A stretch of DNA of 27,921 nucleotides from Candidatus Hermodarchaeota archaeon (GTDB lineage Archaea > Asgardarchaeota > Heimdallarchaeia > Hodarchaeales > Hodarchaeaceae), in the NCBI GenBank assembly GCA_048886185.1, contig JBHLKY010000034.1, positions 1 to 27,921 of the forward strand. Direction: 5' to 3'. The first letter of the stretch is position 1; every line of letters begins with the position of its first letter. The position numbers and the translations under genes are program-made. Below are positions 9,756-21,976 of this stretch, piece by piece. The notes under the pieces are model-generated. The model saw only the letters and a program-made list of their open reading frames with translations. It was not told where the DNA came from and made no database searches.

Positions 9756-11141
9756 CTAAAGAACCAGGGTTCCAGTAAATATTGGATTAGAAATAGTCTC
9801 AAGTGAATTCACTAGTAAGTATTGGATGCGTAAAGGATAATTACATTTGATTTTTAATGAATTTAAATCGAGAAAAATAGTGGAATTTGCTTTAAGAGTA
9901 ATCTCTTGAAAGGGTATCTCAGTTTCAGTTCCATTCTGGAAAACCTGGATAGCAGACGTTAAAATTATTGGAATGTCACCTCTATTCTTAATATTAAATG
10001 TACTGTTCTTAATCATGTCTAAATCAAGTATAGTGGTGTACTGATAATGGAGAGCTTCTTCAATTGCTCGTATCTGACCCTTTGGCAATGTTAGCTGATT
10101 TTTGTACAAATAAGAGAATACTTTAGAGAATTGCCAGCTTTTTAACCAAGTAAATAAAAAATAAAAACTTTCCTTGGTCATATTTTCAGGAACAGCACAT
10201 TCTATATTAAATGGTAAACCAAGAAATATTGCTAAGACAAGAAATTCTTCATTTTGGCTAGTGGTGAATAGCTCGCAAAATAAGAGAGGTAAACTTTGAC
10301 GAGAAGGATTTCTAATGAGATCTAATGGCAATTTTAATAAGAATAGAAAATCAAGTGTTTTCATTGGAATGTCATAATAAAAAGTAATTCTATTTAGAAG
10401 GGTGTAAATTTGAAGAGGTTCTAATTGACTCCAAGCATCCATCTCTTGAATCAGTTTGTAGGATTCCCGATTTTTGATTAATGATTCATCCTTCACTTTT
10501 TCGAAGTAGTTGAGTAGTTTAAAAGCAAGGGCCTCTGATAACTCTGCATTTTGTTGAATTGAAGAAGGAAGAAAAAAGTAAAGAGAATAGTAATAAAAAA
10601 TCAATCTTATATTTGAACTTCGATAAGGAATTAGAATGAAGTCTTTGGTGAATTTTGAGTTGAAAATTCCCTCAGCTTCTTGATCTATCCCCTTTATCAG
10701 TGGCCTCTTTTGACGTTGCTTTTTAGAAATTCCCAATATTTTTGCTATTCGAGTCCATACCTGTTGAAACTGCCTATCAAGATGACGATTTTGTTGGGCA
10801 ATGGTCAGTTCTTTTTTGGGAGGAGGGTACATAGCAATTTTCTTAGATTTGGAACGAAGATCCTTTGACACTTCTTCTAAAGAGGAAAAATAAGATTGTC
10901 CATGAAGCATATTTCCTTCAATGTCAAAAAGATATAGTCGTATCTCCTTTTTCCAAAGAATTACTACCATATAAGAGAGACCCGCATCTGTGTTGATAAC
11001 CAAGCTTGGTATACTTGGTAACCCCTTTTTGAAAACAATGTGTTTTTTTAAGCGACGTAACTCTCCCGAATCAGCACCCTTCTCTTTCACCTCCCTTCGT
11101 ACAAACTTCATTAATTCTTTCTTTACTTCTCGGCGTACCAT
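9756..11141 (-). CDS. Hypothetical protein, 461 aa
   Basis: Long ATG-started ORF filling the gap between neighbours; no family motif recognised with certainty. Confidence 0.8.
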   Translation of the reverse strand: MVRREVKKELMKFVRREVKEKGADSGELRRLKKHIVFKKGLPSIPSLVINTDAGLSYMVVILWKKEIRLYLFDIEGNMLHGQSYFSSLEEVSKDLRSKSKKIAMYPPPKKELTIAQQNRHLDRQFQQVWTRIAKILGISKKQRQKRPLIKGIDQEAEGIFNSKFTKDFILIPYRSSNIRLIFYYYSLYFFLPSSIQQNAELSEALAFKLLNYFEKVKDESLIKNRESYKLIQEMDAWSQLEPLQIYTLLNRITFYYDIPMKTLDFLFLLKLPLDLIRNPSRQSLPLLFCELFTTSQNEEFLVLAIFLGLPFNIECAVPENMTKESFYFLFTWLKSWQFSKVFSYLYKNQLTLPKGQIRAIEEALHYQYTTILDLDMIKNSTFNIKNRGDIPIILTSAIQVFQNGTETEIPFQEITLKANSTIFLDLNSLKIKCNYPLRIQYLLVNSLETISNPIFTGTLVL

Positions 11142-11165
11142 CAGTAAATTCGGTGATTTTTCAAC

Positions 11166-11179
11166 TATTTAAGTTTCTT
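11166..11179 (-). promoter_or_regulatory. BRE-TATA candidate for the 461-aa gene
   Basis: Minus strand reads GAGAAA-C-TTAAATA, with the TATA-like box 25-31 nt upstream of ATG 11141. This fits a leaderless or short-leader archaeal transcript. Confidence 0.45.
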
Positions 11180-11234
11180 CACTATGCTAAAGAATCTTTT
11201 TCAATGTTCACTATAAATAACGTTTGTGCAAATG

Positions 11235-11549
11235 ATGAAACTACGAATTCAGTTATTTGGACAATTAGGAGCGAATTTAGGTTCTAACATAGAATTAAGG
11301 TTTAATGAGAAAGAACCAACTCTTCGAGAAGTCATTGAGATGCTAATCAAAAAAGATGAAAAATTAGAATCTCTGCTATTGAAAGGAAATGATTTGAAAC
11401 ATGGTACAATTCTCTTGGTTAACGGACATATTGTTGATAGATCACAATGGGGCCTAGATGAGAGTCTTAAACACCGAGATCACGTGACAATCGATCAATT
11501 AGGTTTTCTGCCCATTGTAGGTGGAGGTTATAATTGCCATATTAGGTGA
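11235..11549 (+). CDS. moaD: MoaD/ThiS/SAMP family ubiquitin-like sulfur carrier with a C-terminal extension after GGG
   Basis: MKLRIQLFG, PTLREVIEML, ILLVNG, and LPIVGGG followed by YNCHIR. Lies directly upstream of a Mo-hydroxylase. Alternative starts are GTG 11226 and ATG 11232. Confidence 0.8.
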   Translation: MKLRIQLFGQLGANLGSNIELRFNEKEPTLREVIEMLIKKDEKLESLLLKGNDLKHGTILLVNGHIVDRSQWGLDESLKHRDHVTIDQLGFLPIVGGGYNCHIR

Positions 11550-11550
11550 T
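11544..11550 (+). promoter_or_regulatory. Shine-Dalgarno site AGGTGAT for the Mo-hydroxylase large subunit, overlapping the moaD stop
   Basis: AGGTGAT 7 nt upstream of ATG 11558. Confidence 0.65.
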
Positions 11551-11557
11551 CTGAGTT

Positions 11558-13927
11558 ATGGTAAATTATGTTGGTCAATCAATCCCACGTAAAGATGCTT
11601 TTAACAAGGTATCTGGTGCTGCTATTTATGCTTTTGATATAGACAACTTTCCTAACATGCTTTACTGTAAGTTTTTAACATCACCACACGCGCATGCTCA
11701 GATTCTTTCTATCGATACTTCAAAAGCTGAAGAATTACCAGGGGTCGCAGCTGTTGTAACAGGTAAAGATTGGCCTATAAAAATAGGATTATATGCAGGA
11801 GATCGTGACATTCTGGCTGTAGAGAAAGTTGTTTGGCTCGGTCAACCAGTAGTCGCTGTAGCTGCAGAGTCAGAGAGATTAGCATCTCAGGCTCTGGAAC
11901 TAGTTAATATACACTATGAAATACTCCCCAATGTTTTAGATCCACTTGAGGCTAAAAACTCAACAAAAATCCTTGTTCATGAAAAGATGGCTGAATATGA
12001 ACATTCACCTGCTTTCAATCCTATTCCTGGTACTAACATTGCAAACCATTTCAAATTACGTAAGGGTGACATCAAGAAAGGCTTCGCTCAATCCGATTTA
12101 ATAATAGAAAACACGTTTTCTATGCCCCAAGTAGCTCATGCATACCTAGAACCACTTGTTTCAATTGGTCAATACAAAGAAGATGGAACAATACAAGTCT
12201 GGTCATCTGCACAATCACCCTTTACGGTAAGGTATTTACTTGGAGCTACGTTTGGAGTACCTATATCAAATATTACCGTCCATACCCCCTTCCTCGGTGG
12301 AGGTTTTGGGGGTAAAGCAGGTCTAAATTTTGAACCTCTAGTAGTTTTACTTTCACGAAAAGCGAATAATAGACCAGTAAAACTTCGATTGACTCGAGAA
12401 GAGAATTTTCGTAGCGCTCCTATTAGGGTAGGGATGATTGCGCATGTGAAAACAGGATTGAAGTCAAATGGTAGAATACTGGCAGAAGAACTTGAATATA
12501 TATGGGATTCAGGTGCATGTGCAGATTACGCAGTAAATGTAGGGCGTGCAGGTGGTTATGTTTCAATAGGCCCATACGATATTGATAACATTAAATCTGA
12601 TTCTTATACTATTTATACCAATAAACCCTACGCAACCGCTTTTCGTGGATTTGGCCATATGGAATTACATTGGGCCATTGAAAGACAACGTGATACCATT
12701 GCTAATGCTTTAAAGATGGATCCAGTTGAATTTCGGAAAATTAACACTCTGAAACCAGGAATATCTCTAACTGCAAATCAAGAGTGTCTTCGTACAGATG
12801 CAGGAAATCTCGATCAATGTCTTGAAAAGGTTTGGACTGAATTAAAATATGGCTTCTCAAACTCTCCAGTTGAAAAACCATGGTTATTTCGCGGCATTGG
12901 GATTGCAGGTTTTATGAAAGGGCCTGCTCAACCACCCAATAGTTCTGCATCAGCTTATGTTAAGTTTAATGAAGATGGAGGTATTTTAGTTTCTGTCGGA
13001 ACATCAGAGATGGGACAAGGAACTATTACAAGCCTTGCCCAAATTGCAGCTGAAGAATTAGGACTTCCTATAGAAAAAGTCAAGATCAGAGGAGACCGAG
13101 ACACTGATCGTGATGCATATACATGGCAAACTGTAGGATCCCGCTCTTTATTCATGGATGGAAATGCTGTTAAGAATGCCTGTAAAGACGCAAAATCACA
13201 AATACTTGAGTTAGCAAGTCAAGTATTACATGTTCAATCTGATGACTTAATAATTGAAAATGAACTAATATTTCCCAGGGGAGAAAAATGGAAACACATG
13301 AGTCTAGCTGAACTCGCAATGGGTTACATGTATGCCACTGGTGAATCTATAGGGGGACCTATAATCGGTAGAGGAAAGTATATTGCTAAAATGACAATGT
13401 TAGATCCAGAAACAGGTGCCGGAAAACCAGCTATCTTTGATACATTTGGAGCTCACGGAGTTGAAATTGAGATAAATGTCTTAACAGGGGAAATTACGGT
13501 TAAACGCTTGATTTCGGCATTTGATATCGGAAAAGCAATCAATCCGAGATTATGTGAAGGACAAATAATAGGAGGAAGTGTAATGGCTTTATCAATCGCA
13601 TTGAATGAACAACTTCAATACAATGAGGAGGGTGAGCTATTAAATCCTAATTTGGTAGACTATGTAATTGCTCGATCAGGGGATATTCCTGGAGAATTTG
13701 TTTCTTATTTAATAGAGAATCCACAAGAAGATGGACCCTATGGCGCAAGGGGCATTGGTGAGTTGACAATGCTCGGTGTGCCTGCTGCAGTAGGTAATGC
13801 TATATTTAATGCGATTGGTGTCCAAATTAATGATTTACCTCTCACACCCCAGAAAGTTTGGTCAGAAATTCACCAACAACGACCAGAACTCATAATGTCT
13901 ATGAAAAAGAGAATTTTGGAGGATTAA
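11558..13927 (+). CDS. Xanthine dehydrogenase family molybdopterin-binding (large) subunit
   Basis: HAYLEP; WSSAQSPF; GGGFGGK; AFRGFG; GQG..T...QIAAEELG; TVGSRS; GARGIGE with the catalytic Glu. Confidence 0.93.
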   Translation: MVNYVGQSIPRKDAFNKVSGAAIYAFDIDNFPNMLYCKFLTSPHAHAQILSIDTSKAEELPGVAAVVTGKDWPIKIGLYAGDRDILAVEKVVWLGQPVVAVAAESERLASQALELVNIHYEILPNVLDPLEAKNSTKILVHEKMAEYEHSPAFNPIPGTNIANHFKLRKGDIKKGFAQSDLIIENTFSMPQVAHAYLEPLVSIGQYKEDGTIQVWSSAQSPFTVRYLLGATFGVPISNITVHTPFLGGGFGGKAGLNFEPLVVLLSRKANNRPVKLRLTREENFRSAPIRVGMIAHVKTGLKSNGRILAEELEYIWDSGACADYAVNVGRAGGYVSIGPYDIDNIKSDSYTIYTNKPYATAFRGFGHMELHWAIERQRDTIANALKMDPVEFRKINTLKPGISLTANQECLRTDAGNLDQCLEKVWTELKYGFSNSPVEKPWLFRGIGIAGFMKGPAQPPNSSASAYVKFNEDGGILVSVGTSEMGQGTITSLAQIAAEELGLPIEKVKIRGDRDTDRDAYTWQTVGSRSLFMDGNAVKNACKDAKSQILELASQVLHVQSDDLIIENELIFPRGEKWKHMSLAELAMGYMYATGESIGGPIIGRGKYIAKMTMLDPETGAGKPAIFDTFGAHGVEIEINVLTGEITVKRLISAFDIGKAINPRLCEGQIIGGSVMALSIALNEQLQYNEEGELLNPNLVDYVIARSGDIPGEFVSYLIENPQEDGPYGARGIGELTMLGVPAAVGNAIFNAIGVQINDLPLTPQKVWSEIHQQRPELIMSMKKRILED

Positions 13928-13929
13928 AG

Positions 13930-14790
13930 ATGACTGAAACTATCTCACATGTAAACCTTCCTCAGTTTGAGATTCTAATCCCCAATTCAATAGAAGAAGC
14001 ATTAAAAATGCTTCACAGTCACCGAGATAACTGTAAGCTTCTTGCTGGAGGAACAGATCTATTGAACGACCTTCGTCATCGATTAATACGACCAAAGGTT
14101 CTTATTGACATAAAAAACGTTCCAGAATTGAATACACTCGAATTCACACCAAATGAGGTACAAATTGGAGCAGCAGTAGCTATTTCCGAAGTATTGAAAC
14201 AGCCTCTGTTAAAAGTGCATTATAATGCACTTTATCAAGCACTTAATGACATGTGTGATGAAATCCTGAGGAAAAGGGCTACTATAGGAGGAAATATTGC
14301 AACAGCTTCCCCAGCAGCGGACACTGCTGCCCCTCTTTTTGTACATCAAGCTGTAGTCGAAGTTCAATCTCAATCTAGAGGAAATAGGCGAATACCAATC
14401 GTTGAATTCTTTAGAGGAGTGAAAAAAAACGATCTTGTTTCTGATGAGCTAATAGTTTCAATCACAATTCCTAAACCTATCTCTGGAAATAAGTCAGCAT
14501 TTATGAAGATGAAGCGTGGAGTAGAAGATTTAGCTCTAGTAGGAGTTGCAGGTTCACATGATCAACACCGAACATACTTAGGCTTCACAGCTGTAGCTCC
14601 GACACCTATATTTTTAGATATATCAGCTCTCATAACCAATAACCAGATCTCTGAAGATGTATTCCAACCAATATGGCAGGAGATTCTATCAAACATAAAT
14701 CCCATAACTGATGTACGTTCATGTAGAGAATACCGCATTCATATTGCAGAAATATTAACTAGATTAATCATCAAGGAGATTATGTCATGA
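13930..14790 (+). CDS. Xanthine dehydrogenase family FAD-binding (medium) subunit
   Basis: AGGTDL; RATIGGNIATASPAAD; P+TDVRS..EYR. The likely start is ATG 13930 (GGAGG upstream, 2 nt after the large-subunit stop), not 13858. Confidence 0.92.
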   Translation: MTETISHVNLPQFEILIPNSIEEALKMLHSHRDNCKLLAGGTDLLNDLRHRLIRPKVLIDIKNVPELNTLEFTPNEVQIGAAVAISEVLKQPLLKVHYNALYQALNDMCDEILRKRATIGGNIATASPAADTAAPLFVHQAVVEVQSQSRGNRRIPIVEFFRGVKKNDLVSDELIVSITIPKPISGNKSAFMKMKRGVEDLALVGVAGSHDQHRTYLGFTAVAPTPIFLDISALITNNQISEDVFQPIWQEILSNINPITDVRSCREYRIHIAEILTRLIIKEIMS

Positions 14791-15254
14791 AAAAGCACAT
14801 AAGAGTTATTGTAAATACTAAAACTTATGATATTCTAGCTAAACCTAATGAAACTTTACTTGATATTTTACGTAATCACCTACACATCACATCAGTTAAA
14901 GCAGCCTGTTGGCAGGGCGATTGTGGAATATGCACTGTTCTCCTCGAAGGAATTCCAATTAAATCTTGTTTAGTACTAGCACATGAAGCAAATAACAAAA
15001 ATATATTAACAGTTGAAGGTTTATCAAGAGAAGGAGTTATTTCAAATCTCCAAAAGTCATTTATCACTAGTGGAGCTGTTCAGTGTGGATTTTGTACTTC
15101 AGCGTTTCTGCTTATGGGGCACTACCTTTTATCACAGGGTAAACCACTAGACCGAAAAGAAGTTGGACATCTATTAAATGGGATTATCTGCAGATGTACC
15201 GGATATAAACAAATTATTGATTCAATCATTGCAATTAATACAATCACGGAGTAA
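14787..15254 (+). CDS. Xanthine dehydrogenase family 2x[2Fe-2S] (small) subunit
   Basis: CWQGDCGICTV...SCL and QCGFCT...CRCTGY; ATGA overlap with the medium subunit. Confidence 0.94.
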   Translation: MKKHIRVIVNTKTYDILAKPNETLLDILRNHLHITSVKAACWQGDCGICTVLLEGIPIKSCLVLAHEANNKNILTVEGLSREGVISNLQKSFITSGAVQCGFCTSAFLLMGHYLLSQGKPLDRKEVGHLLNGIICRCTGYKQIIDSIIAINTITE

Positions 15255-15328
15255 TCTAATCAACGAATCCAAATCTTATTCAAATAACGTCATTTCTTCC
15301 AAGATTAAAATGAATTGCGGGTATATTC

Positions 15329-16267
15329 TTGAAAGTGAGGTTTGAATGTCTTTATTGTCTATTTCACAGAGCAGAAAGACAAATAGAAAGGTTAACAACC
15401 AATGAAGAACTTCGTTTTAGAGCTTTAGCTGGAGTAATCCGAATTATTGCCAACCATGTAGATCCTAGTGGTTCTGAGAATATTTCTCATCCTCTTCGAC
15501 TTTGTCCCAGTTACATTGGTACTAAACGAGACAGATTTCTTCAAACATTCTTTCAAGTAGTTGACATATACAAGAAAGAGAAGTCAGAAACCAAAGCTCA
15601 AACGCTCTATCTTTGGCGTATGATTCAAAATGAGATGAAAAGCTTAAGTAATTTGCAAAAACAGCTGAATAAAGCTTTAGCATTAGCTACAGCAGCTAAT
15701 ATCATCGAATATGACCTTTTAACTCAGAAAAGGGAACCCAATATAAACCAAAAGATAGAGTTCGTCTTTAATTTTGCAGAAAAAGAATGGGATGACCTTT
15801 CTTATGAATTAATTCCTAACTTTTTGTCTAATATTAAATCAGCAAATAAAATTCTGTACCTTACTGATAACATTGGAGAAACTGTGTTTGATGCAAAAGT
15901 CATTGACATCCTCTTACACCTAGGTAAAGATATTATCATTGCAGGAAAAAGCAAACCTATTTTGAATGATGCTACTTATTTGGACTTAAGAGAACTTTGG
16001 GATAAAATAAATTGCAAAAATGATCTGAAAATCATTTCTATTGGTACGAATTCTGTAGGACTACTTCTAGATGAAGTATCAGACGAGTTTCAGGAAGCCA
16101 TGAGTGAATGTGATTTAATTATAGCCAAAGGAATGGGTCACTTTGAAACTCTACCAGAGTATGATTGGAATCAAGCTGTTTGGTGTCTCTTTCGTACAAA
16201 ATGTAATCCAGTTGCAATGGAAGCAAATTCAATTCTTGGAAAAAATTGTATTAGAAAAATTGCTTAG
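15329..16267 (+). CDS. DUF89/ARMT1-like damage-control metal-dependent phosphatase (subfamily I-like)
   Basis: N-terminal ECLYC; LYLTDNIGETVFD; PILNDAT; IIAKGMGHFETL; TKCNPVA. Confidence 0.85.
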   Translation: MKVRFECLYCLFHRAERQIERLTTNEELRFRALAGVIRIIANHVDPSGSENISHPLRLCPSYIGTKRDRFLQTFFQVVDIYKKEKSETKAQTLYLWRMIQNEMKSLSNLQKQLNKALALATAANIIEYDLLTQKREPNINQKIEFVFNFAEKEWDDLSYELIPNFLSNIKSANKILYLTDNIGETVFDAKVIDILLHLGKDIIIAGKSKPILNDATYLDLRELWDKINCKNDLKIISIGTNSVGLLLDEVSDEFQEAMSECDLIIAKGMGHFETLPEYDWNQAVWCLFRTKCNPVAMEANSILGKNCIRKIA

Positions 16268-16612: not shown

Positions 16613-16990
16613 TTAACCTATCATCTGGCCAATAGCTAGGTATAACATGAATGCAATAACGAAACCAAAGACACCAATACCCTCAATAAAGGCAATGAAT
16701 ATGATAGTTCGACCAAAGACTTCAGGACGCTCTGCAATAGCTCCAATGGCAGCAGAGCTAGCTGTTCCCAGAGCAAGAGCTGCACCTAATCCTGCCAATC
16801 CGATGGCTATCCCCGCTCCAATAGCTAATCCAAAAATTGCCTGTCCAGTATCTTCTTGTGCAGGTTCTTGAGTTGTTGAGGGACTGGCTACTACCGATGT
16901 AACTATCATTGTTAGACTAAGAAGGGCTATTGTTATTAGGCCTATTGCAAATTGCAGCTTAATTATTTGTTTTTTTTGATGTGTATTCAT
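16613..16990 (-). CDS. atpK: A/V-type ATP synthase proteolipid subunit K (c), single hairpin with an N-terminal hydrophobic extension
   Basis: GIAIGLAGLGAALALG; AAIGAIAERPEVFGRTIIFIAFIEG with the conserved carboxylate. GGTGA upstream. Confidence 0.93.
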   Translation of the reverse strand: MNTHQKKQIIKLQFAIGLITIALLSLTMIVTSVVASPSTTQEPAQEDTGQAIFGLAIGAGIAIGLAGLGAALALGTASSAAIGAIAERPEVFGRTIIFIAFIEGIGVFGFVIAFMLYLAIGQMIG

Positions 16991-17060
16991 TCTGTTTCAC
17001 CAAATGGTTGATTCTCCTAGATTTTTTCATTTTATTCTTATTTACACTTAATCAATAGCA

Positions 17061-18143
17061 TTACTTGAAGTAAATTAGCAGTTCACGAGCGAATTCAATA
17101 TCTATACCTTTCCATTTCGTTTCAAAGATAATCCTTAAATTCTCTGTTTCTTGCAAACGAAATATAATATATGCCAAAAATATACCGATATGAAAGGGGT
17201 ATCCAGCCATCATTGTAAGTAAGGATTGAATAAACCATTCTTTTTGAAGTTGTTCAATTTTAGTAATAGATTTATCTTTCTCTCTATATTCACGAAATAT
17301 AGCTTGAATTAGATCAGAATAAACTGTAGTTTGAAATTGATCTATTGCATCTTGAAATGAGAAAGCTTCGACAGCTTGGTCTAAAACGGAACGTAAACGA
17401 TAATTAATAGGAATAATTTGAAACAAAATGTTCTTAGACGGAAAATTAAGTAATTTACTTCTTAACACAATATTAAGATTGATAAGATCGATCTCTGTTC
17501 CTATTATCTTTTCTGTTACCTTCCTATCTCTCTCATTTTGAGAGGGTATTATTACTTCCCATATTTGTTTATAAAAAGAATGATCAATTGCATTTTCTAA
17601 TAATAAGATATTTTTTTGTTTCTGATATTCATCTAATTTTGAATTCAGTGCTTCTACGACCCAAGGTGTTTGGAGCTTTTGAATTAATTCCTCAATACTT
17701 TCTACTTTGGAGATAATTGCTAATTCTGTTTTCTCATCTGAATTTGCAATAATAAACTTTCTAGACACCAATGATTCAATATCTTTCGTGTGAATCTTAC
17801 GTATTATTTGTTTTAGAATATTCGTGTAAGGTTTTTTTAAATAAAACTCTATAAGAGCGCGTGCCTTCTTAGGAGTATCCTTTAATAATACAAGCATTTC
17901 ATCATAAACATTCTTGTAAAGTGAATCTACCAAAGTTTCGATGAAGTTGTTAGCTTTTAGATCCACACTAGTAAGTGAATCTTTGTATCGAGGAGTGTCT
18001 TGAAGATAACTCAAACCTTCAATCAATGAACTGGATAGTAATCGTTCATAATCAGCAGAAGAGAAAAGTTCCCCTTTTCGGGCCTTTATTCGGGTGTTTA
18101 TGAAGGAATATTCCTTGGCTTCAGTCACTTGCCCAAGTCTCAT
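17061..18143 (-). CDS. atpC: A/V-type ATP synthase subunit C (homologue of eukaryotic V0 d)
   Basis: YSFINTRIKARKGELFS..DYERLL; GTEIDLINLNIVLRSK; ETENLRII. Confidence 0.9.
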   Translation of the reverse strand: MRLGQVTEAKEYSFINTRIKARKGELFSSADYERLLSSSLIEGLSYLQDTPRYKDSLTSVDLKANNFIETLVDSLYKNVYDEMLVLLKDTPKKARALIEFYLKKPYTNILKQIIRKIHTKDIESLVSRKFIIANSDEKTELAIISKVESIEELIQKLQTPWVVEALNSKLDEYQKQKNILLLENAIDHSFYKQIWEVIIPSQNERDRKVTEKIIGTEIDLINLNIVLRSKLLNFPSKNILFQIIPINYRLRSVLDQAVEAFSFQDAIDQFQTTVYSDLIQAIFREYREKDKSITKIEQLQKEWFIQSLLTMMAGYPFHIGIFLAYIIFRLQETENLRIIFETKWKGIDIEFARELLIYFK

Positions 18144-18189
18144 AATTACACACTCAATTCGGATAAATAATCATATTTTACATAAAAGC

Positions 18190-20334
18190 TTATTTTCCCG
18201 TTGCAGTAAATAATCGAATCTCTTTAAAAGGTTGAAAAAGGTATCCTGAACCTTGGAAGTGAATTTTTGAAAAAAATTCCACCCAGCAAAGACGCAATGA
18301 CTGAAGGAATGATACTAATAATTCTAAAGGAATAACCACAAATCCACCTAATATCATCCCAGGAAGGTATTCGATAAGAGTATGGGCATTTCCAGAGAAT
18401 AGCTGTATGAAGACCAAAGAAAGAGAGCCATGAACCATTGTATAAGCAAATATTCTGGCGAATGATATTGTATTTGATATCATAGTGATTAAATAATCAA
18501 GTAACTCACCAATTCCATCCATTCCATGTTTAAAATGATAAATGGATGATAGAACCAGAGGTACTATGACTAACGCAAGTGGATAACTTATGTTCAATAG
18601 AGGAACAGGTAAGACTGGTATTCCCCAGTTTGAAACACCAAGACCATCAAATAACTCACCAACAGGACTGATAAAGTCAATATGATGGTGATGCATGTAT
18701 TCTTCCTGACTATGGGCAATGGTTTGTAATGCTTTTAAATCGAATGTTCCCTCAGTAGCAGATAACCATAATGTTGGATTAGGCCCAAATGTGAATACCA
18801 AAAATATCAACCCAACATAAAATAAGAAAAACATGCCAGGTAAAAATATAGCTTCATTTTTATTATGACTCCATGCTCCTAAAAACTGTATAACCAGAGC
18901 AGATCCAATAACAAGAGCTCCTATAAAGATTGCTAGCTCTAATAATGCAAATTGACCTCCCTGTATCTCTGGTGAAAACCACAAAACTGGTAAGCCAACT
19001 TCTAATGCATGATGACCCCCAAGTCCCCTATAACTCCCGAAAAGAAATCCAAAAATCATGGCTGTAAACCCAATTGTTACTAATATGGGCCCCCCTTTGT
19101 CAAAATAGGATTGAAGTTCAGCCAGCATAGAATTCTGAGAGTATTTCTTTGGATTCAGTGATAAACCATACAAACCTAGAAGAAAGACCACAAGTCCATC
19201 AATAACATCACCAAACATGATACCAAAAAATATGGGAATTAGAAGACTTAAGAATTTAGTTGGATCCCATTCTTTATACCCAGGAACCCCAAAACCATAT
19301 ACAAGACCCTCGAAGGAACGTGAATAGATATTATTTCGTACTTTGGTAGGAAACTCACTGCTTTCTAGCTTTGGTTCAAGAATTTCAGCAGTTATTGAAG
19401 GATTAATATTCTGAATTTTCTTTAGAAACCGCTTCTTTTGCTTTGTTGGGAGCCAAGCCCATATGATATAATGTTCTTTACGTAATTGGGTTCGCTGTAG
19501 AATTCTTAACCGTTCTTCTTCTAAAGATAATTGTTCTTCCATTGCATGAATTTCGAGTTCAAATTCCTCAACTAATTCTTTCACACTATCTTGAAGTGCT
19601 TTTATTTCGTGTTCACGTTCTGTAAGTTCCTTCTCTGCTTGTTTAAGAGCTTCACTAGGAGTACCTTGAAGTTCCTTCGGAAATTTTACTTCTTCGAATC
19701 CTAATCCGCTTAAAAGGCGGTTCAAAGCTGATTGATAAGATTTCATTACCCCCACAAGGCAGGTCACCTTAACCTTTTTTGAAGGAACAGGTATAAAAAT
19801 AAAATCTCCCCCTGTGAGCTGATCTAATGCCATTTCAAGCCGATATTGATGGATCCCCTTCAAAAAGCCAAGAACAGCATAAAAATGACTCCCTTCTCCA
19901 ATATCTTGAATATTATGAATATCCAAATCTTTAATCTCTAATAATGACTCAATGAACTTTTTAAACTCATCCTCTTCATCTTTAAGCCATTTTATTGATT
20001 CTAATTTCTCTGTTAATGGTTTGATGGTTTCTAACAATGATTGTGCTTTATTATTGAGGTCAATTAATGAAAGGTTTTCAAAGTTCATATTCCCTTCTTT
20101 TTTTGAACTCATACTATCCAGAAGATCTGCTATTTTCTTAAACTCACTATGTAAATCAATGGTCTGTGTTTCAACATCTGAGAGTGGTAACGGTTCAGTT
20201 TGAGCAGTTTTCACTAAATCAATAATATCCAAATCTAACTTGCTACTATTACCGACTTCGTTTAGAAATTGCCTACCTAGCTCTTTTTTAAGTGAAACCT
20301 TTGCGATATTCATTTTTTGTGGGCGAAAACCCAA
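18190..20334 (-). CDS. atpI: A/V-type ATP synthase subunit I (homologue of eukaryotic V0 a)
   Basis: Soluble coiled N-terminal half; DPT...FFGIMFGD; SNTISFARIFA with the essential Arg; SLRLCWVEFFSK..G.G..FQPF. TTG start with GGAGG 7 nt upstream. Confidence 0.93.
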   Translation of the reverse strand: MGFRPQKMNIAKVSLKKELGRQFLNEVGNSSKLDLDIIDLVKTAQTEPLPLSDVETQTIDLHSEFKKIADLLDSMSSKKEGNMNFENLSLIDLNNKAQSLLETIKPLTEKLESIKWLKDEEDEFKKFIESLLEIKDLDIHNIQDIGEGSHFYAVLGFLKGIHQYRLEMALDQLTGGDFIFIPVPSKKVKVTCLVGVMKSYQSALNRLLSGLGFEEVKFPKELQGTPSEALKQAEKELTEREHEIKALQDSVKELVEEFELEIHAMEEQLSLEEERLRILQRTQLRKEHYIIWAWLPTKQKKRFLKKIQNINPSITAEILEPKLESSEFPTKVRNNIYSRSFEGLVYGFGVPGYKEWDPTKFLSLLIPIFFGIMFGDVIDGLVVFLLGLYGLSLNPKKYSQNSMLAELQSYFDKGGPILVTIGFTAMIFGFLFGSYRGLGGHHALEVGLPVLWFSPEIQGGQFALLELAIFIGALVIGSALVIQFLGAWSHNKNEAIFLPGMFFLFYVGLIFLVFTFGPNPTLWLSATEGTFDLKALQTIAHSQEEYMHHHHIDFISPVGELFDGLGVSNWGIPVLPVPLLNISYPLALVIVPLVLSSIYHFKHGMDGIGELLDYLITMISNTISFARIFAYTMVHGSLSLVFIQLFSGNAHTLIEYLPGMILGGFVVIPLELLVSFLQSLRLCWVEFFSKIHFQGSGYLFQPFKEIRLFTATGK

Positions 20335-20341
20335 TTATACG

Positions 20342-20346
20342 CCTCC
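20342..20346 (-). promoter_or_regulatory. Shine-Dalgarno site for atpI
   Basis: GGAGG on the minus strand 7 nt upstream of TTG 20334. Confidence 0.65.
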
Positions 20347-20539
20347 ATAGTAACTATTTGACGGGTATTCTATTGATTCTCGACTTTGAACATAATATTA
20401 TTAATTATTTCGATAAAAATAAGCGAAGAATGAAAAGATAATTAATACAGTTCAGGGAGAAAAGAAAAGAAAGAAAGGAAAATTCATTGGTTAAAAGAGA
20501 GTCTTTCAATAAAATCCATTAAAATGCAAGGGAATCATA

Positions 20540-21616
20540 TTGGATAATATTCAAGTCAAATCTATTGAAAATACATCAGTCAACCATTCTTTTCCTGATA
20601 TATTCTCTGATTTCTTTTCCACGATAACTTCCAATGAAATCATTACCTATTTACGAAAAAAACGCGAAGAACAAAGAATATTGAAAGAAATATCTCTTTC
20701 AGACCTGTTTTCTTTACATGAAAGATACAGTTCGTTGAACACAATCTCATATCAGGTTCATATATCAGAAACGATTGAATTAATTGAGGGAAGAATAGTC
20801 TCAAGTGATATCAACCAATATCGTGGATTATTATTGAATATTGAGCGAGCTATGAGCTATTTTTACTTGTTTTATTGGATTTTCCGTTTTTTTAAATATT
20901 CTAATGCAACTAGGATTTCTCTCGAAAGTTATTCATTATTTCGACGTATGTTTGAACATCTATGGCAAATACAATATCCATGGGATTTGATCCGTCCAGC
21001 AAGAATTTCACGACCTTTGAATTACACAGAAACTCGTGAGATTCAAAAGATCGTTACTTATCAGCAGAAAAAAGCTTGGCAAATTGCAAAATTCATTGAA
21101 AAGAAGGGAGACGTCAAAGAATCACTAAAAGAGGTGGAAATTCTTCCACATATAATAAAATCTATGGGCATTACTGGACCAATTGCACGAATTTCAGGAA
21201 ATTTTCCCTTGTTGATACCACCATCATCAGTCCATACACGACGATCAGCACAACTTTTTCTCAAGTATGCTTATTCCAATGATAATAATCTATTAAGTAT
21301 TTTGAAAATAAGTTATGCTGAATTAATTCTTGCATTAAATAGAATTTCTCAACTACTTGGAGAATTTCCTATTGAATCTCCCGAGATTCCGAAAACACTG
21401 GTGAATGGTGAAGCCACAACATCCTTTGAAACTGTATTTGGTAAATGTCATTTAACAATAAACATATCCGATAACAAGATCATCTATTACAATTTCATTC
21501 CCCCCCAAATGACGAATTTGACTGGATTCCTGGAAATTCTTTCAACAACACCAGTCTCTTTAAAACCCATCTTTTTGTTATTGTTCGATCCCGAAATCTC
21601 TTTAAAGGTTAAGTGA
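20540..21616 (+). CDS. Degenerate group 4 [NiFe]-hydrogenase large subunit / NuoD-fold protein lacking Ni-Fe cysteine ligands
   Basis: Colinear blocks: ERYSSLN...ETIELIEGRIV...YRGLLLNIERAMSY; MGITGPIARISG; GEATTSFETVFG; IPPQMTNL; LFDPEISL. These correspond to ERxCGxC...AVE...G.EVP...R....ELERI.SH, GVTGP.ARASG, GE...E.PRG, PS..NL and DPCxxC. Confidence 0.75.
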   Translation: MDNIQVKSIENTSVNHSFPDIFSDFFSTITSNEIITYLRKKREEQRILKEISLSDLFSLHERYSSLNTISYQVHISETIELIEGRIVSSDINQYRGLLLNIERAMSYFYLFYWIFRFFKYSNATRISLESYSLFRRMFEHLWQIQYPWDLIRPARISRPLNYTETREIQKIVTYQQKKAWQIAKFIEKKGDVKESLKEVEILPHIIKSMGITGPIARISGNFPLLIPPSSVHTRRSAQLFLKYAYSNDNNLLSILKISYAELILALNRISQLLGEFPIESPEIPKTLVNGEATTSFETVFGKCHLTINISDNKIIYYNFIPPQMTNLTGFLEILSTTPVSLKPIFLLLFDPEISLKVK

Positions 21617-21622
21617 GTAGCA

Positions 21623-21976
21623 GTGCTATCGATTCAACTTCAATTTCTTTTATTTATCTTATTCACTTTTATTCTTCTAATCTTAATAGCTTTGGATATT
21701 GATTATTTTAATCGTTTTCTTTCACAAGAGAAATATTGGAAAATAGCACCGAAACCCTATATTAAGAAGGATATAGGAGAAATTATTCAACAGCTTAATT
21801 CACATATTCAATCAGAAAGTCTTGCAAGAAGGTCAGTTCAAATTTGTCCTGTTGAAGCTTTAAAATTAATAAGAGATCATAAAAAAAACCTTATGATCTC
21901 AGAAAAAAGATGTCTGGGAGACACTTGTCTTGAATGCTTAAAATTAATCCCATCTCAAAGTACGAAATCGGAATAA
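21623..21976 (+). CDS. Membrane-anchored degenerate ferredoxin (NuoI/EchF-like), probably one [4Fe-4S] cluster
   Basis: N-terminal hydrophobic helix; QICPVEAL; CLGDTCLEC. GTG start 6 nt after the upstream stop. Confidence 0.65.
   Translation: MLSIQLQFLLFILFTFILLILIALDIDYFNRFLSQEKYWKIAPKPYIKKDIGEIIQQLNSHIQSESLARRSVQICPVEALKLIRDHKKNLMISEKRCLGDTCLECLKLIPSQSTKSE

What the first reader, a model, noticed from the sequence alone, without database searches (positions are those of the whole stretch)
20540..21616. Orphan 'dead' hydrogenase/NuoD homologue transcribed divergently from the I-C-K operon
The protein is colinear with group 4 [NiFe]-hydrogenase large subunits, yet all four Cys ligands are gone: ERxCGxC becomes ERYSSLN and DPCxxC becomes DPEISL. 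The HRG motif and the Arg of ExPRG (now ETVFG) are also lost, and the protein has only one Cys. The ORF is nevertheless intact over 358 aa and ends where such subunits normally end, which argues for a retained non-catalytic role. Cys-less relatives are known (NuoD, Ehr/Mbx-type), but they sit in operons with a NuoB-like small subunit and NuoH/antiporter subunits, and none of those is here. Its only partner is a membrane-anchored ferredoxin, and it shares a 205-bp divergent region with the ATPase membrane sector. Hypothesis: a repurposed pseudo-enzyme/ferredoxin pair acts as a redox sensor, scaffold or assembly factor for the membrane rotor or another complex.
Basis: partly seen in the sequence, partly recalled or inferred. 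Interest (0 to 1): 0.75.

Follow-up and report, generated by a model that had tools for sequence, protein, structure and literature searches.

The report
Cysteine-less orphan NuoD-fold protein, Asgard
This gene encodes an intact hydrogenase/complex-I "large subunit" look-alike that has lost every metal-binding cysteine. Selection keeps it in one genus of Heimdall-type Asgard archaea, and its position next to the ATPase genes is inherited gene order, not evidence that the two work together.

Summary
Window 20540-21616 (+) encodes a 358-aa protein with a full-length NuoD/[NiFe]-hydrogenase large-subunit fold (Z 28, about 313 aligned residues). It is colinear with the genome's own group-4 hydrogenase paralogue. 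Both Cys pairs are replaced (ERVCGIC to ERYSSLN, DPC to DPE), and the single Cys is not conserved.

It belongs to a small undescribed family found in 20 of 21 genomes of one GTDB genus and in no other of 400 Asgard genomes. dN/dS is 0.16-0.26, so selection is purifying but 2-4 times looser than on neighbouring enzymes. All four NuoB-type genes of this genome sit beside their own large subunit, and both NuoH genes lie in such clusters, so this copy is a true orphan.

AtpI is the divergent neighbour in 11 of 21 loci. In four loci the gene directly follows an XDH-family Mo-hydroxylase operon. In two it follows a 2-oxoacid:ferredoxin oxidoreductase operon. The whole region is syntenic by descent.

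A tightly coupled membrane-anchored protein with four invariant Cys accompanies the gene in 13 of 21 loci. It is absent, and not found elsewhere, in five genomes searched.

Best reading: a non-catalytic scaffold, usually paired with that Fe-S protein. The mechanism is inferred, not shown. The scan had already noted this family in another genome (e1-3524358).

The parts
20540..21616 (+). Cys-less NuoD/[NiFe]-hydrogenase-large-subunit-fold protein, 358 aa (P0001)
   Evidence: Fold. Colinear hhalign to the genome's own group-4 paralogue with all ligand Cys replaced. Family alignment. dN/dS 0.16-0.26.
21623..21976 (+). Small partner protein, 117 aa. It has an N-terminal TM helix and a half-ferredoxin domain with four invariant Cys (C75-P, C97, C102, C105). 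Its start lies 6 nt after the stop of the NuoD-like gene.
   Evidence: Present in 13 of 21 loci, with 4-nt overlaps or gaps of 0-7 nt. Invariant Cys, P76, A79 and G99. Weak hits to the RamA ferredoxin domain (E 2e-5) and LdpA Fe-S domain (E 0.03). TM helix modelled with pLDDT 88-96; the soluble part is low-confidence.
20335..20539 (.). AT-rich 205-bp divergent spacer between atpI and the NuoD-like gene
   Evidence: Sequence read. In other loci this spacing ranges from about 100 to 280 bp. No promoter was tested.
16613..20334 (-). A-type ATPase membrane-sector genes K (c), C (d) and I (a). They are neighbours by synteny and are not shown to belong functionally.
   Evidence: Pfam PF00137, PF01992 and PF01496. 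Adjacent in 11 of 21 loci and absent from the locus in the others.
11226..15254 (+). MoaD/ThiS-like gene plus an XDH-family molybdenum hydroxylase (large 789 aa, FAD medium, 2x[2Fe-2S] small). Same strand as the NuoD-like gene and directly upstream of it in four other lineages.
   Evidence: Pfam and NCBIfam. Synteny.

Best explanation
The gene encodes a non-catalytic paralogue of the group-4 [NiFe]-hydrogenase large subunit / NuoD. It left its operon, lost the NiFe ligands and the quinone-site Tyr, and has been kept by purifying selection in a single genus of Heimdall/Hodarchaeales-type Asgard archaea. Shown: the fold, the loss of ligands, the narrow distribution, the selection, and the lack of a dedicated NuoB or NuoH. 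Inferred: it acts as a cofactor-free protein scaffold. In about two-thirds of the species it would pair with the translationally coupled, membrane-anchored single-[4Fe-4S]-type protein. That would make a minimal NuoD/NuoB-like two-piece module on the cytoplasmic face of the membrane, taking or passing electrons for nearby low-potential oxidoreductases (XDH-family Mo-hydroxylase, 2-oxoacid:ferredoxin oxidoreductase). It is not a hydrogenase, and nothing ties it functionally to the ATPase rotor.
For: Fold and colinearity. Ligand loss and a single non-conserved Cys. Conserved positions are mostly the inherited fold-core motifs (ER......E..G, RG..LN.ER, IRPG, GITGP.AR..G, E..L), which points to a structural rather than a new catalytic role. 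Omega is 0.16-0.26 at dS 0.25-0.8, against 0.04-0.07 for PEP synthase and 0.07-0.11 for CoxL. The ORF is intact wherever the contig allows. 20 of 21 genus genomes give a match: 19 at E < 1e-89 and one cut by a contig end. The small partner starts within 7 nt of the stop, or overlaps it by 4 nt, in 13 loci, and its four Cys are invariant. Basic residues after its TM helix place the Fe-S domain in the cytoplasm (inferred from the positive-inside rule). The gene is co-oriented with and directly downstream of the Mo-hydroxylase small subunit in four lineages, and of an OFOR-EamA string in G070 and G071.
Against: Seven loci lack the small Fe-S protein, and it was not found elsewhere in the five genomes searched (four of them 90-94% complete, one 70%). 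The NuoD-like gene there shows the same omega, 0.16-0.23. Its core role therefore cannot depend on that partner. G070 and G071 have no XDH-family Mo subunit at all. No expression or interaction data exist. All carriers are one genus, so synteny is weak evidence. NuoD-family proteins are not known to work without NuoB.
Confidence: 0.38

Rival explanations
1. It is a trans-encoded alternative or auxiliary large subunit. The Cys-less copy would plug into one of the two complete NuoB/NuoH-containing complexes encoded elsewhere (contigs C11 and C25). It could replace the catalytic large subunit or assist its assembly, changing or silencing that complex's chemistry.
For: The closest sequence relative in the same genome is the C25 group-4 large subunit (hhalign probability 96%). 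NuoD-fold proteins are otherwise always heteromeric (established knowledge of complex I and group-4 hydrogenases). In one search, genus genomes that lack the small Fe-S protein still list at least one other NuoD-type gene. The protein is retained without the small partner. A separately encoded NuoD2 was noted by this scan in actinobacteria (e1-2290270; not checked here).
Against: Every NuoB-type cluster here already has its own large subunit, so there is no NuoD-less operon to complete. The family sits on a long stem branch, evolves fast, and its first ~40 residues are variable and low-confidence in the model. This fits release from the old interfaces.
Confidence: 0.25
2. It is a dedicated accessory of the XDH-family molybdenum hydroxylase (an electron-exit module, membrane tether or maturation factor). 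The ancestral operon would be MoaD-like, L, M, S, NuoD-like, small Fe-S protein.
For: It lies directly downstream on the same strand in G073, G072, G057 and GCA_976602785 (gaps of about 40-240 nt). In eight further loci it has the same orientation, with only the opposite-strand K-C-I block (plus ARMT1 in one clade) in between.
Against: G070 and G071 (90% and 94% complete) keep the NuoD-like gene under purifying selection but have no PF02738 protein anywhere. No orthologous CoxL was found in G065 or G066, though both are only about 70% complete. The clade G064/G058/G061 has the Mo-hydroxylase but no small Fe-S protein.
Confidence: 0.12
3. One reading: the pseudo-enzyme/ferredoxin pair senses redox state or helps assemble the ATPase membrane sector (I-C-K), with which it shares a divergent promoter region.
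For: AtpI is the divergent neighbour in 11 of 21 loci across several deep branches of the genus, and one more locus keeps an AtpI fragment.
Against: It is not adjacent in G073, G072, G057, GCA_976602785, G069, G070 or G071. AtpI of G070 and G071 lies on other contigs. The whole region is syntenic by descent within one genus. No known link exists between NuoD-fold proteins and A/V-ATPases.
Confidence: 0.05
4. It is a functionless relic of a decayed hydrogenase operon.
For: All catalytic residues are lost. It evolves fast: 27-60% identity within a genus in which PEP synthase stays at 73-95%. The window's own copy has a long terminal branch of 0.49.
Against: Omega is 0.16-0.26 at unsaturated dS. 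The roughly 350-aa frame is intact in essentially every genome, 31 columns are invariant, and the model is confident.
Confidence: 0.05

Closest known systems
Group-4 [NiFe]-hydrogenase large subunits (E. coli HycE, PDB 7z0s_E; P. furiosus MbhL, 6cfw_L; this genome's own copy on contig C25)
   Same: Same fold, colinear over almost the full length. Shared core motifs (ER..., E..G, R..LE.ER, GxTGPxARASG, E..S, and a C-terminal DP). Best in-genome sequence match.
   Different: Both Cys pairs of the NiFe site are gone. H and G of the HRG motif are replaced, with R kept. The first ~40 residues are variable and low-confidence in the model. There are no small subunit, NuoH-like or antiporter genes alongside.
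NuoD / Nqo4 / 49-kDa subunit of complex I (for example T. thermophilus 3iam_4, M. smegmatis 8e9g_D)
   Same: Also Cys-less. VIA Z about 28 over about 312 residues. Relatives hit NuoD NCBIfam and Pfam models weakly.
   Different: The position aligned with the quinone-binding Tyr (R-x-D-Y) is Ser65 and varies in the family. It has no nuo operon. The window protein itself gets no PF00346 hit at E <= 1.
Cys-less Ehr / Mbx / MBS-type large subunits (MbsL, 6u8y_L)
   Same: Hydrogenase-derived and non-hydrogenase. Z 28.0 to MbsL.
   Different: Those are encoded with NuoB-like, NuoH-like and Mrp antiporter subunits. None is present at this locus.
Separately encoded NuoD2 of actinobacteria (taken from scan note e1-2290270, not verified here)
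   Same: A NuoD-like gene that stands alone in the genome.
   Different: According to that note, NuoD2 completes a NuoD-less nuo2 operon. Here both NuoB/NuoH clusters already contain a large subunit.

Membership tests
[NiFe]-hydrogenase large subunit (group 4) | Large-subunit fold | tested here: met
   Foldseek hit to HycE 7z0s_E, E 7.7e-9. VIA Z about 28. hhalign probability 96% to the genome's own group-4 copy.
[NiFe]-hydrogenase large subunit (group 4) | N-terminal RxCGxC and C-terminal DPCxxC cysteine ligands | tested here: not met
   ERVCGIC aligns with ERYSSLN, and DPC with DPE. One non-conserved Cys in 358 aa.
[NiFe]-hydrogenase large subunit (group 4) | Adjacent NuoB-type small subunit (PF01058) | tested here: not met
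   The four PF01058 genes of the genome lie on C25 (two), C11 and C7, each beside its own large subunit. None is in the window.
NuoD / complex I 49-kDa subunit (PF00346) | Match to the family model above its cut-off | tested here: not met
   The window protein has no PF00346 hit at E <= 1 and scores 18 bits against a 360-bit cut-off for NF004739. 20 of 26 relatives give weak PF00346 hits, the best at 7e-9.
NuoD / complex I 49-kDa subunit (PF00346) | Quinone-site Tyr in the R-x-D-Y motif | tested here: not met
   The profile alignment to NuoC/D 7q5y_B puts the Tyr opposite position 65, which is Ser here and variable in the family. The His of the N-terminal loop could not be placed.
NuoD / complex I 49-kDa subunit (PF00346) | Encoded within a nuo-type operon (NuoB, C, H, I) | tested here: not met
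   Neighbours are AtpI, the small Fe-S protein and PEP synthase. The same holds in all 21 loci.
Ehr / Mbx-type Cys-less complexes | Co-encoded NuoB-like, NuoH-like and Mrp antiporter-like subunits | tested here: not met
   None is found in any of the 21 loci. A different Asgard lineage does have a Cys-less NuoD-like gene next to a NuoH-like gene.
Separately encoded subunit of a NuoD-less complex (NuoD2-type) | A nuo or hydrogenase operon elsewhere that lacks its large subunit | tested here: not met
   Both NuoH genes and all four NuoB-type genes lie in clusters that hold their own large subunit.
2x[4Fe-4S] ferredoxin (for the small partner) | Two CxxCxxCxxxCP motifs | tested here: not met
   Only C-P plus Cx4Cx2C are present, four invariant Cys, enough for one cluster. 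No Fer4 Pfam hit; only weak LdpA and RamA ferredoxin-domain hits. Cluster binding itself cannot be tested here.

The most novel reading that the evidence does not exclude
The NuoD-like protein and the membrane-anchored single-cluster Fe-S protein form a previously unknown minimal two-protein descendant of the hydrogenase/complex-I Q-module. A cofactor-free NuoD shell would hold a NuoB-replacing [4Fe-4S] carrier at the membrane. This module would dock soluble low-potential dehydrogenases (XDH-family Mo-hydroxylase, OFOR) to the membrane in Hodarchaeales-type Asgard archaea.
Probability: 0.15. Interest if true: 0.7.

Novelty: new variant of a known kind. Interest (0 to 1): 0.45.

Why it matters
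Cys-less descendants of [NiFe]-hydrogenase large subunits are central to how complex I evolved. So far they have been described as parts of multi-subunit membrane complexes. Here a selectively maintained family has the same fold but no NuoB, NuoH or antiporter partners. It occurs in a lineage close to the eukaryotic stem, and it is often coupled to a one-cluster membrane ferredoxin. This shows that the fold can be kept outside those complexes, and it gives a defined two-gene target for biochemistry. It also removes a tempting but unsupported link between this gene and the split V0-like ATPase gene set next to it.

Tried and rejected
1. Pfam and PDB sequence searches with the single protein found nothing useful; a family profile was needed.

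2. Complex prediction of the NuoD-like protein with the soluble part of the small Fe-S protein returned 'no answer' (score 0.00). This counts neither for nor against binding.

3. The look-up of sequencing runs listed no RNA holder. The only holders are sediment and estuary DNA metagenomes, four of which are possibly the source sample. Expression and co-transcription therefore could not be examined, and read laying was not used.

4. The AF2 model of the small protein was confident only for the TM helix (soluble part pLDDT 54-68), so no fold search was run on it.

5. A word-based homologue search with the small protein found only itself. Its relatives were collected from syntenic loci instead.

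6. Literature searches found no description of this family. The Asgard oxygen-metabolism preprint (10.1101/2024.07.04.601786) discusses only NuoBCDI-type and Mbh-like complexes.

7. Contigs for the distant metagenomic members P0032, P0033 and P0036 were too short to add context beyond PEP synthase.

8. Two dN/dS values for CoxM are artefacts of out-of-register tblastn segments and were ignored.

9. The backbone of the family tree is unresolved. It could not be decided whether the K-C-I block was inserted between the Mo-hydroxylase operon and the gene or was lost from there.

Full report
**What is in the sequence.** Window 20540-21616 (+) is an intact 358-aa ORF with a TTG start. The orthologues begin with the same Met-Asp-Asn residues. 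A 117-aa ORF starts 6 nt after its stop, at 21623-21976. Upstream on the opposite strand lie the ATPase genes I, C and K, at 20334-16613, separated by a 205-bp AT-rich spacer. Downstream and convergent are PEP synthase, enolase and a DAG-kinase-like gene. Further upstream on the same strand is a MoaD/ThiS-like gene plus an XDH-family molybdenum hydroxylase with large, FAD and 2x[2Fe-2S] subunits, at 11226-15254.

**Is it a NuoD/hydrogenase homologue?** The single sequence hits nothing in Pfam or PDB. Four lines of evidence still support the homology.
- It has 29 close homologues, all from Heimdall/Hodarchaeales-labelled Asgard assemblies.
- 20 of 26 aligned relatives hit PF00346.
- The family profile hits NuoD, MbsL and MbhL chains.
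- NCBIfam NuoD models are hit by 12 of 13 diverse members.

The AF2 model (pTM 0.81) matches HycE, Nqo4/NuoD and MbhL across nearly its whole length. Foldseek gives E 7.7e-9 and TMq about 0.7. VIA gives Z about 28, rmsd about 3 A and about 313 residues. The ESM Atlas's own model gives the same answer, TM 0.8.

hhalign against the genome's own Cys-bearing group-4 large subunit (contig C25) is colinear, 41-352 against 69-388, with probability 96%. It shows these replacements:
- HRG becomes KRE.
- ERVCGIC becomes ERYSSLN.
- DPC becomes DPE.

The protein has one Cys, C303, and that position is not conserved in the family. The position equivalent to the quinone-site Tyr of NuoD is Ser65 and is variable. 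Only the ExPRG register is slightly uncertain.

**Distribution and selection.** A profile search of 400 Asgard genomes found matches in 20 of 21 genomes of one GTDB genus. Nineteen score E < 1e-89, and one is cut by a contig end. Nothing comparable turned up elsewhere: the next hits, at E 1e-19 or weaker, are ordinary PF00346 proteins. An exhaustive search of 1.8 billion representatives found only 15 clusters.

Within the genus the protein has diverged to 27-60% identity, while PEP synthase stays at 73-95%. Pairwise Nei-Gojobori dN/dS values at unsaturated dS (0.25-0.8) are:

| Gene | dN/dS |
|---|---|
| NuoD-like | 0.16-0.26 |
| PEP synthase | 0.04-0.07 |
| CoxL | 0.07-0.11 |
| AtpI | 0.10-0.12 |
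| AtpC | 0.14-0.22 |
| Small partner | 0.21-0.35 |

The reading frame is intact wherever the contig allows. One genome has a stop only in the dispensable N-terminal ~25 residues. The gene is therefore maintained, under relaxed but clearly purifying selection. The conserved columns are mainly the inherited fold-core motifs, which fits a structural role.

**Is it really an orphan?** The genome has four NuoB-type genes. All four sit in clusters that hold their own large subunit, and both NuoH genes lie in two of those clusters:
- a complex-I-like cluster on contig C11 (NuoB, C, D, H);
- a group-4 hydrogenase cluster on C25, with intact Cys motifs;
- two group-3 hydrogenases, on C25 and C7.

No operon lacks its large subunit, so the NuoD2-type explanation (a detached subunit of an otherwise complete set) is not met.

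**Neighbourhood across 21 loci.**
- AtpI is the divergent neighbour in 11 loci, and one more locus keeps only a 110-aa AtpI fragment.
- In four lineages (G073, G072, G057, GCA_976602785) the gene directly follows the Mo-hydroxylase small subunit on the same strand.
- In eight of the AtpI-adjacent loci the same Mo-hydroxylase operon lies just beyond the opposite-strand K-C-I block.
- In G070 and G071 the gene ends a string of a four-subunit 2-oxoacid:ferredoxin oxidoreductase plus an EamA transporter. These genomes (90% and 94% complete) have no PF02738 protein at all, and their AtpI lies on other contigs.
- PEP synthase is convergent downstream in about 18 loci.

All carriers are one genus, and the whole ~25-kb region is syntenic, so adjacency to AtpI is no stronger evidence than adjacency to enolase. 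The family tree backbone is unresolved, so the order of the rearrangements cannot be fixed.

**The small partner.** Thirteen loci carry the 109-122-aa gene immediately downstream, with a 4-nt overlap or a gap of 0-7 nt. It has an N-terminal TM helix followed by basic residues, which by the positive-inside rule puts the C-terminal domain in the cytoplasm. Its invariant residues are C75-P76, A79, C97-L-G99, C102 and C105. That gives four Cys, enough for one [4Fe-4S] cluster in a half-ferredoxin. This agrees with the scan's note e1-5455451.

Seven loci lack the gene, and the NuoD-like gene there abuts PEP synthase. No copy was found elsewhere in the five such genomes searched. dN/dS of the NuoD-like gene in those lineages is unchanged at 0.16-0.23. 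The pair is therefore frequent and tightly coupled but not obligate.

**Interpretation.**
- Shown: a cofactor-ligand-free NuoD-fold paralogue that is genus-restricted, selectively maintained, and has no dedicated NuoB or NuoH.
- Inferred (confidence about 0.4): it acts as a non-catalytic scaffold. In most species it would work with the co-translated membrane-anchored Fe-S protein as a minimal NuoD/NuoB-like module near low-potential oxidoreductases.
- Main rival (about 0.25): it works in trans with one of the complete complexes encoded elsewhere.
- A dedicated Mo-hydroxylase accessory role (about 0.12) is weakened by G070 and G071.

The complex prediction gave no answer and no RNA data were available. 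Neither counts as evidence.

**Novelty.** I found no description of this family in the searchable literature. The scan had already flagged a member in another genome (e1-3524358, an unverified first-reader note). I rate it a new variant of a known kind: a Cys-less hydrogenase-derived large subunit that stands outside any complex-I-like operon.

Noticed in passing
L061:9878-12827 (G084, a different Asgard family, f7/g17): A Cys-less PF00346 NuoD-like gene (375 aa) is followed by a NuoH-like gene (351 aa, PF00146) and a 209-aa polytopic membrane protein, with no NuoB nearby. All 11 genomes of that genus gave NuoD-type matches (E 1e-7 to 1e-19) to the family profile. This may be a reduced NuoD-NuoH module, intermediate between full complexes and the orphan studied here.
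   Followed up: partly
window:11226-15254 and window:9756-11141: A MoaD/ThiS-like gene plus an XDH-family Mo-hydroxylase (L, M, S; below all NCBIfam equivalog cut-offs, substrate unknown) is conserved across the genus. It comes with a divergently oriented 461-aa protein that has no Pfam or NCBIfam hit.
   Followed up: partly
G066:C1:564423-564746 (beside L044): Only the first ~110 codons of atpI remain upstream of the NuoD-like gene, followed by ribosomal-protein genes. This is a rearrangement breakpoint (or a misassembly) inside atpI.
   Followed up: no
L056 and L057, about 11000-15550 (G070, G071): A four-subunit 2-oxoacid:ferredoxin oxidoreductase (gamma, delta, alpha, beta) and an EamA transporter precede the NuoD-like gene on the same strand. 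These two genomes have no XDH-family Mo subunit (PF02738) at all.
   Followed up: partly
window:16285-16581: A conserved 98-aa protein with two predicted TM helices and no family hit sits between the ARMT1-like phosphatase gene and the 3' end of the ATPase K gene. It is present in most loci that carry the K-C-I block.
   Followed up: no
window:20540-21616: The window's own copy has a terminal branch of 0.49 substitutions per site, against 0.07-0.23 for its closest relatives. Its evolution has accelerated in this lineage.
   Followed up: no
window:16613-20334: Only the ATPase subunits I, C and K are encoded here. Pfam PF01496 finds no second subunit-I gene in the genome. The location of the A1 genes was not examined.
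   Followed up: no
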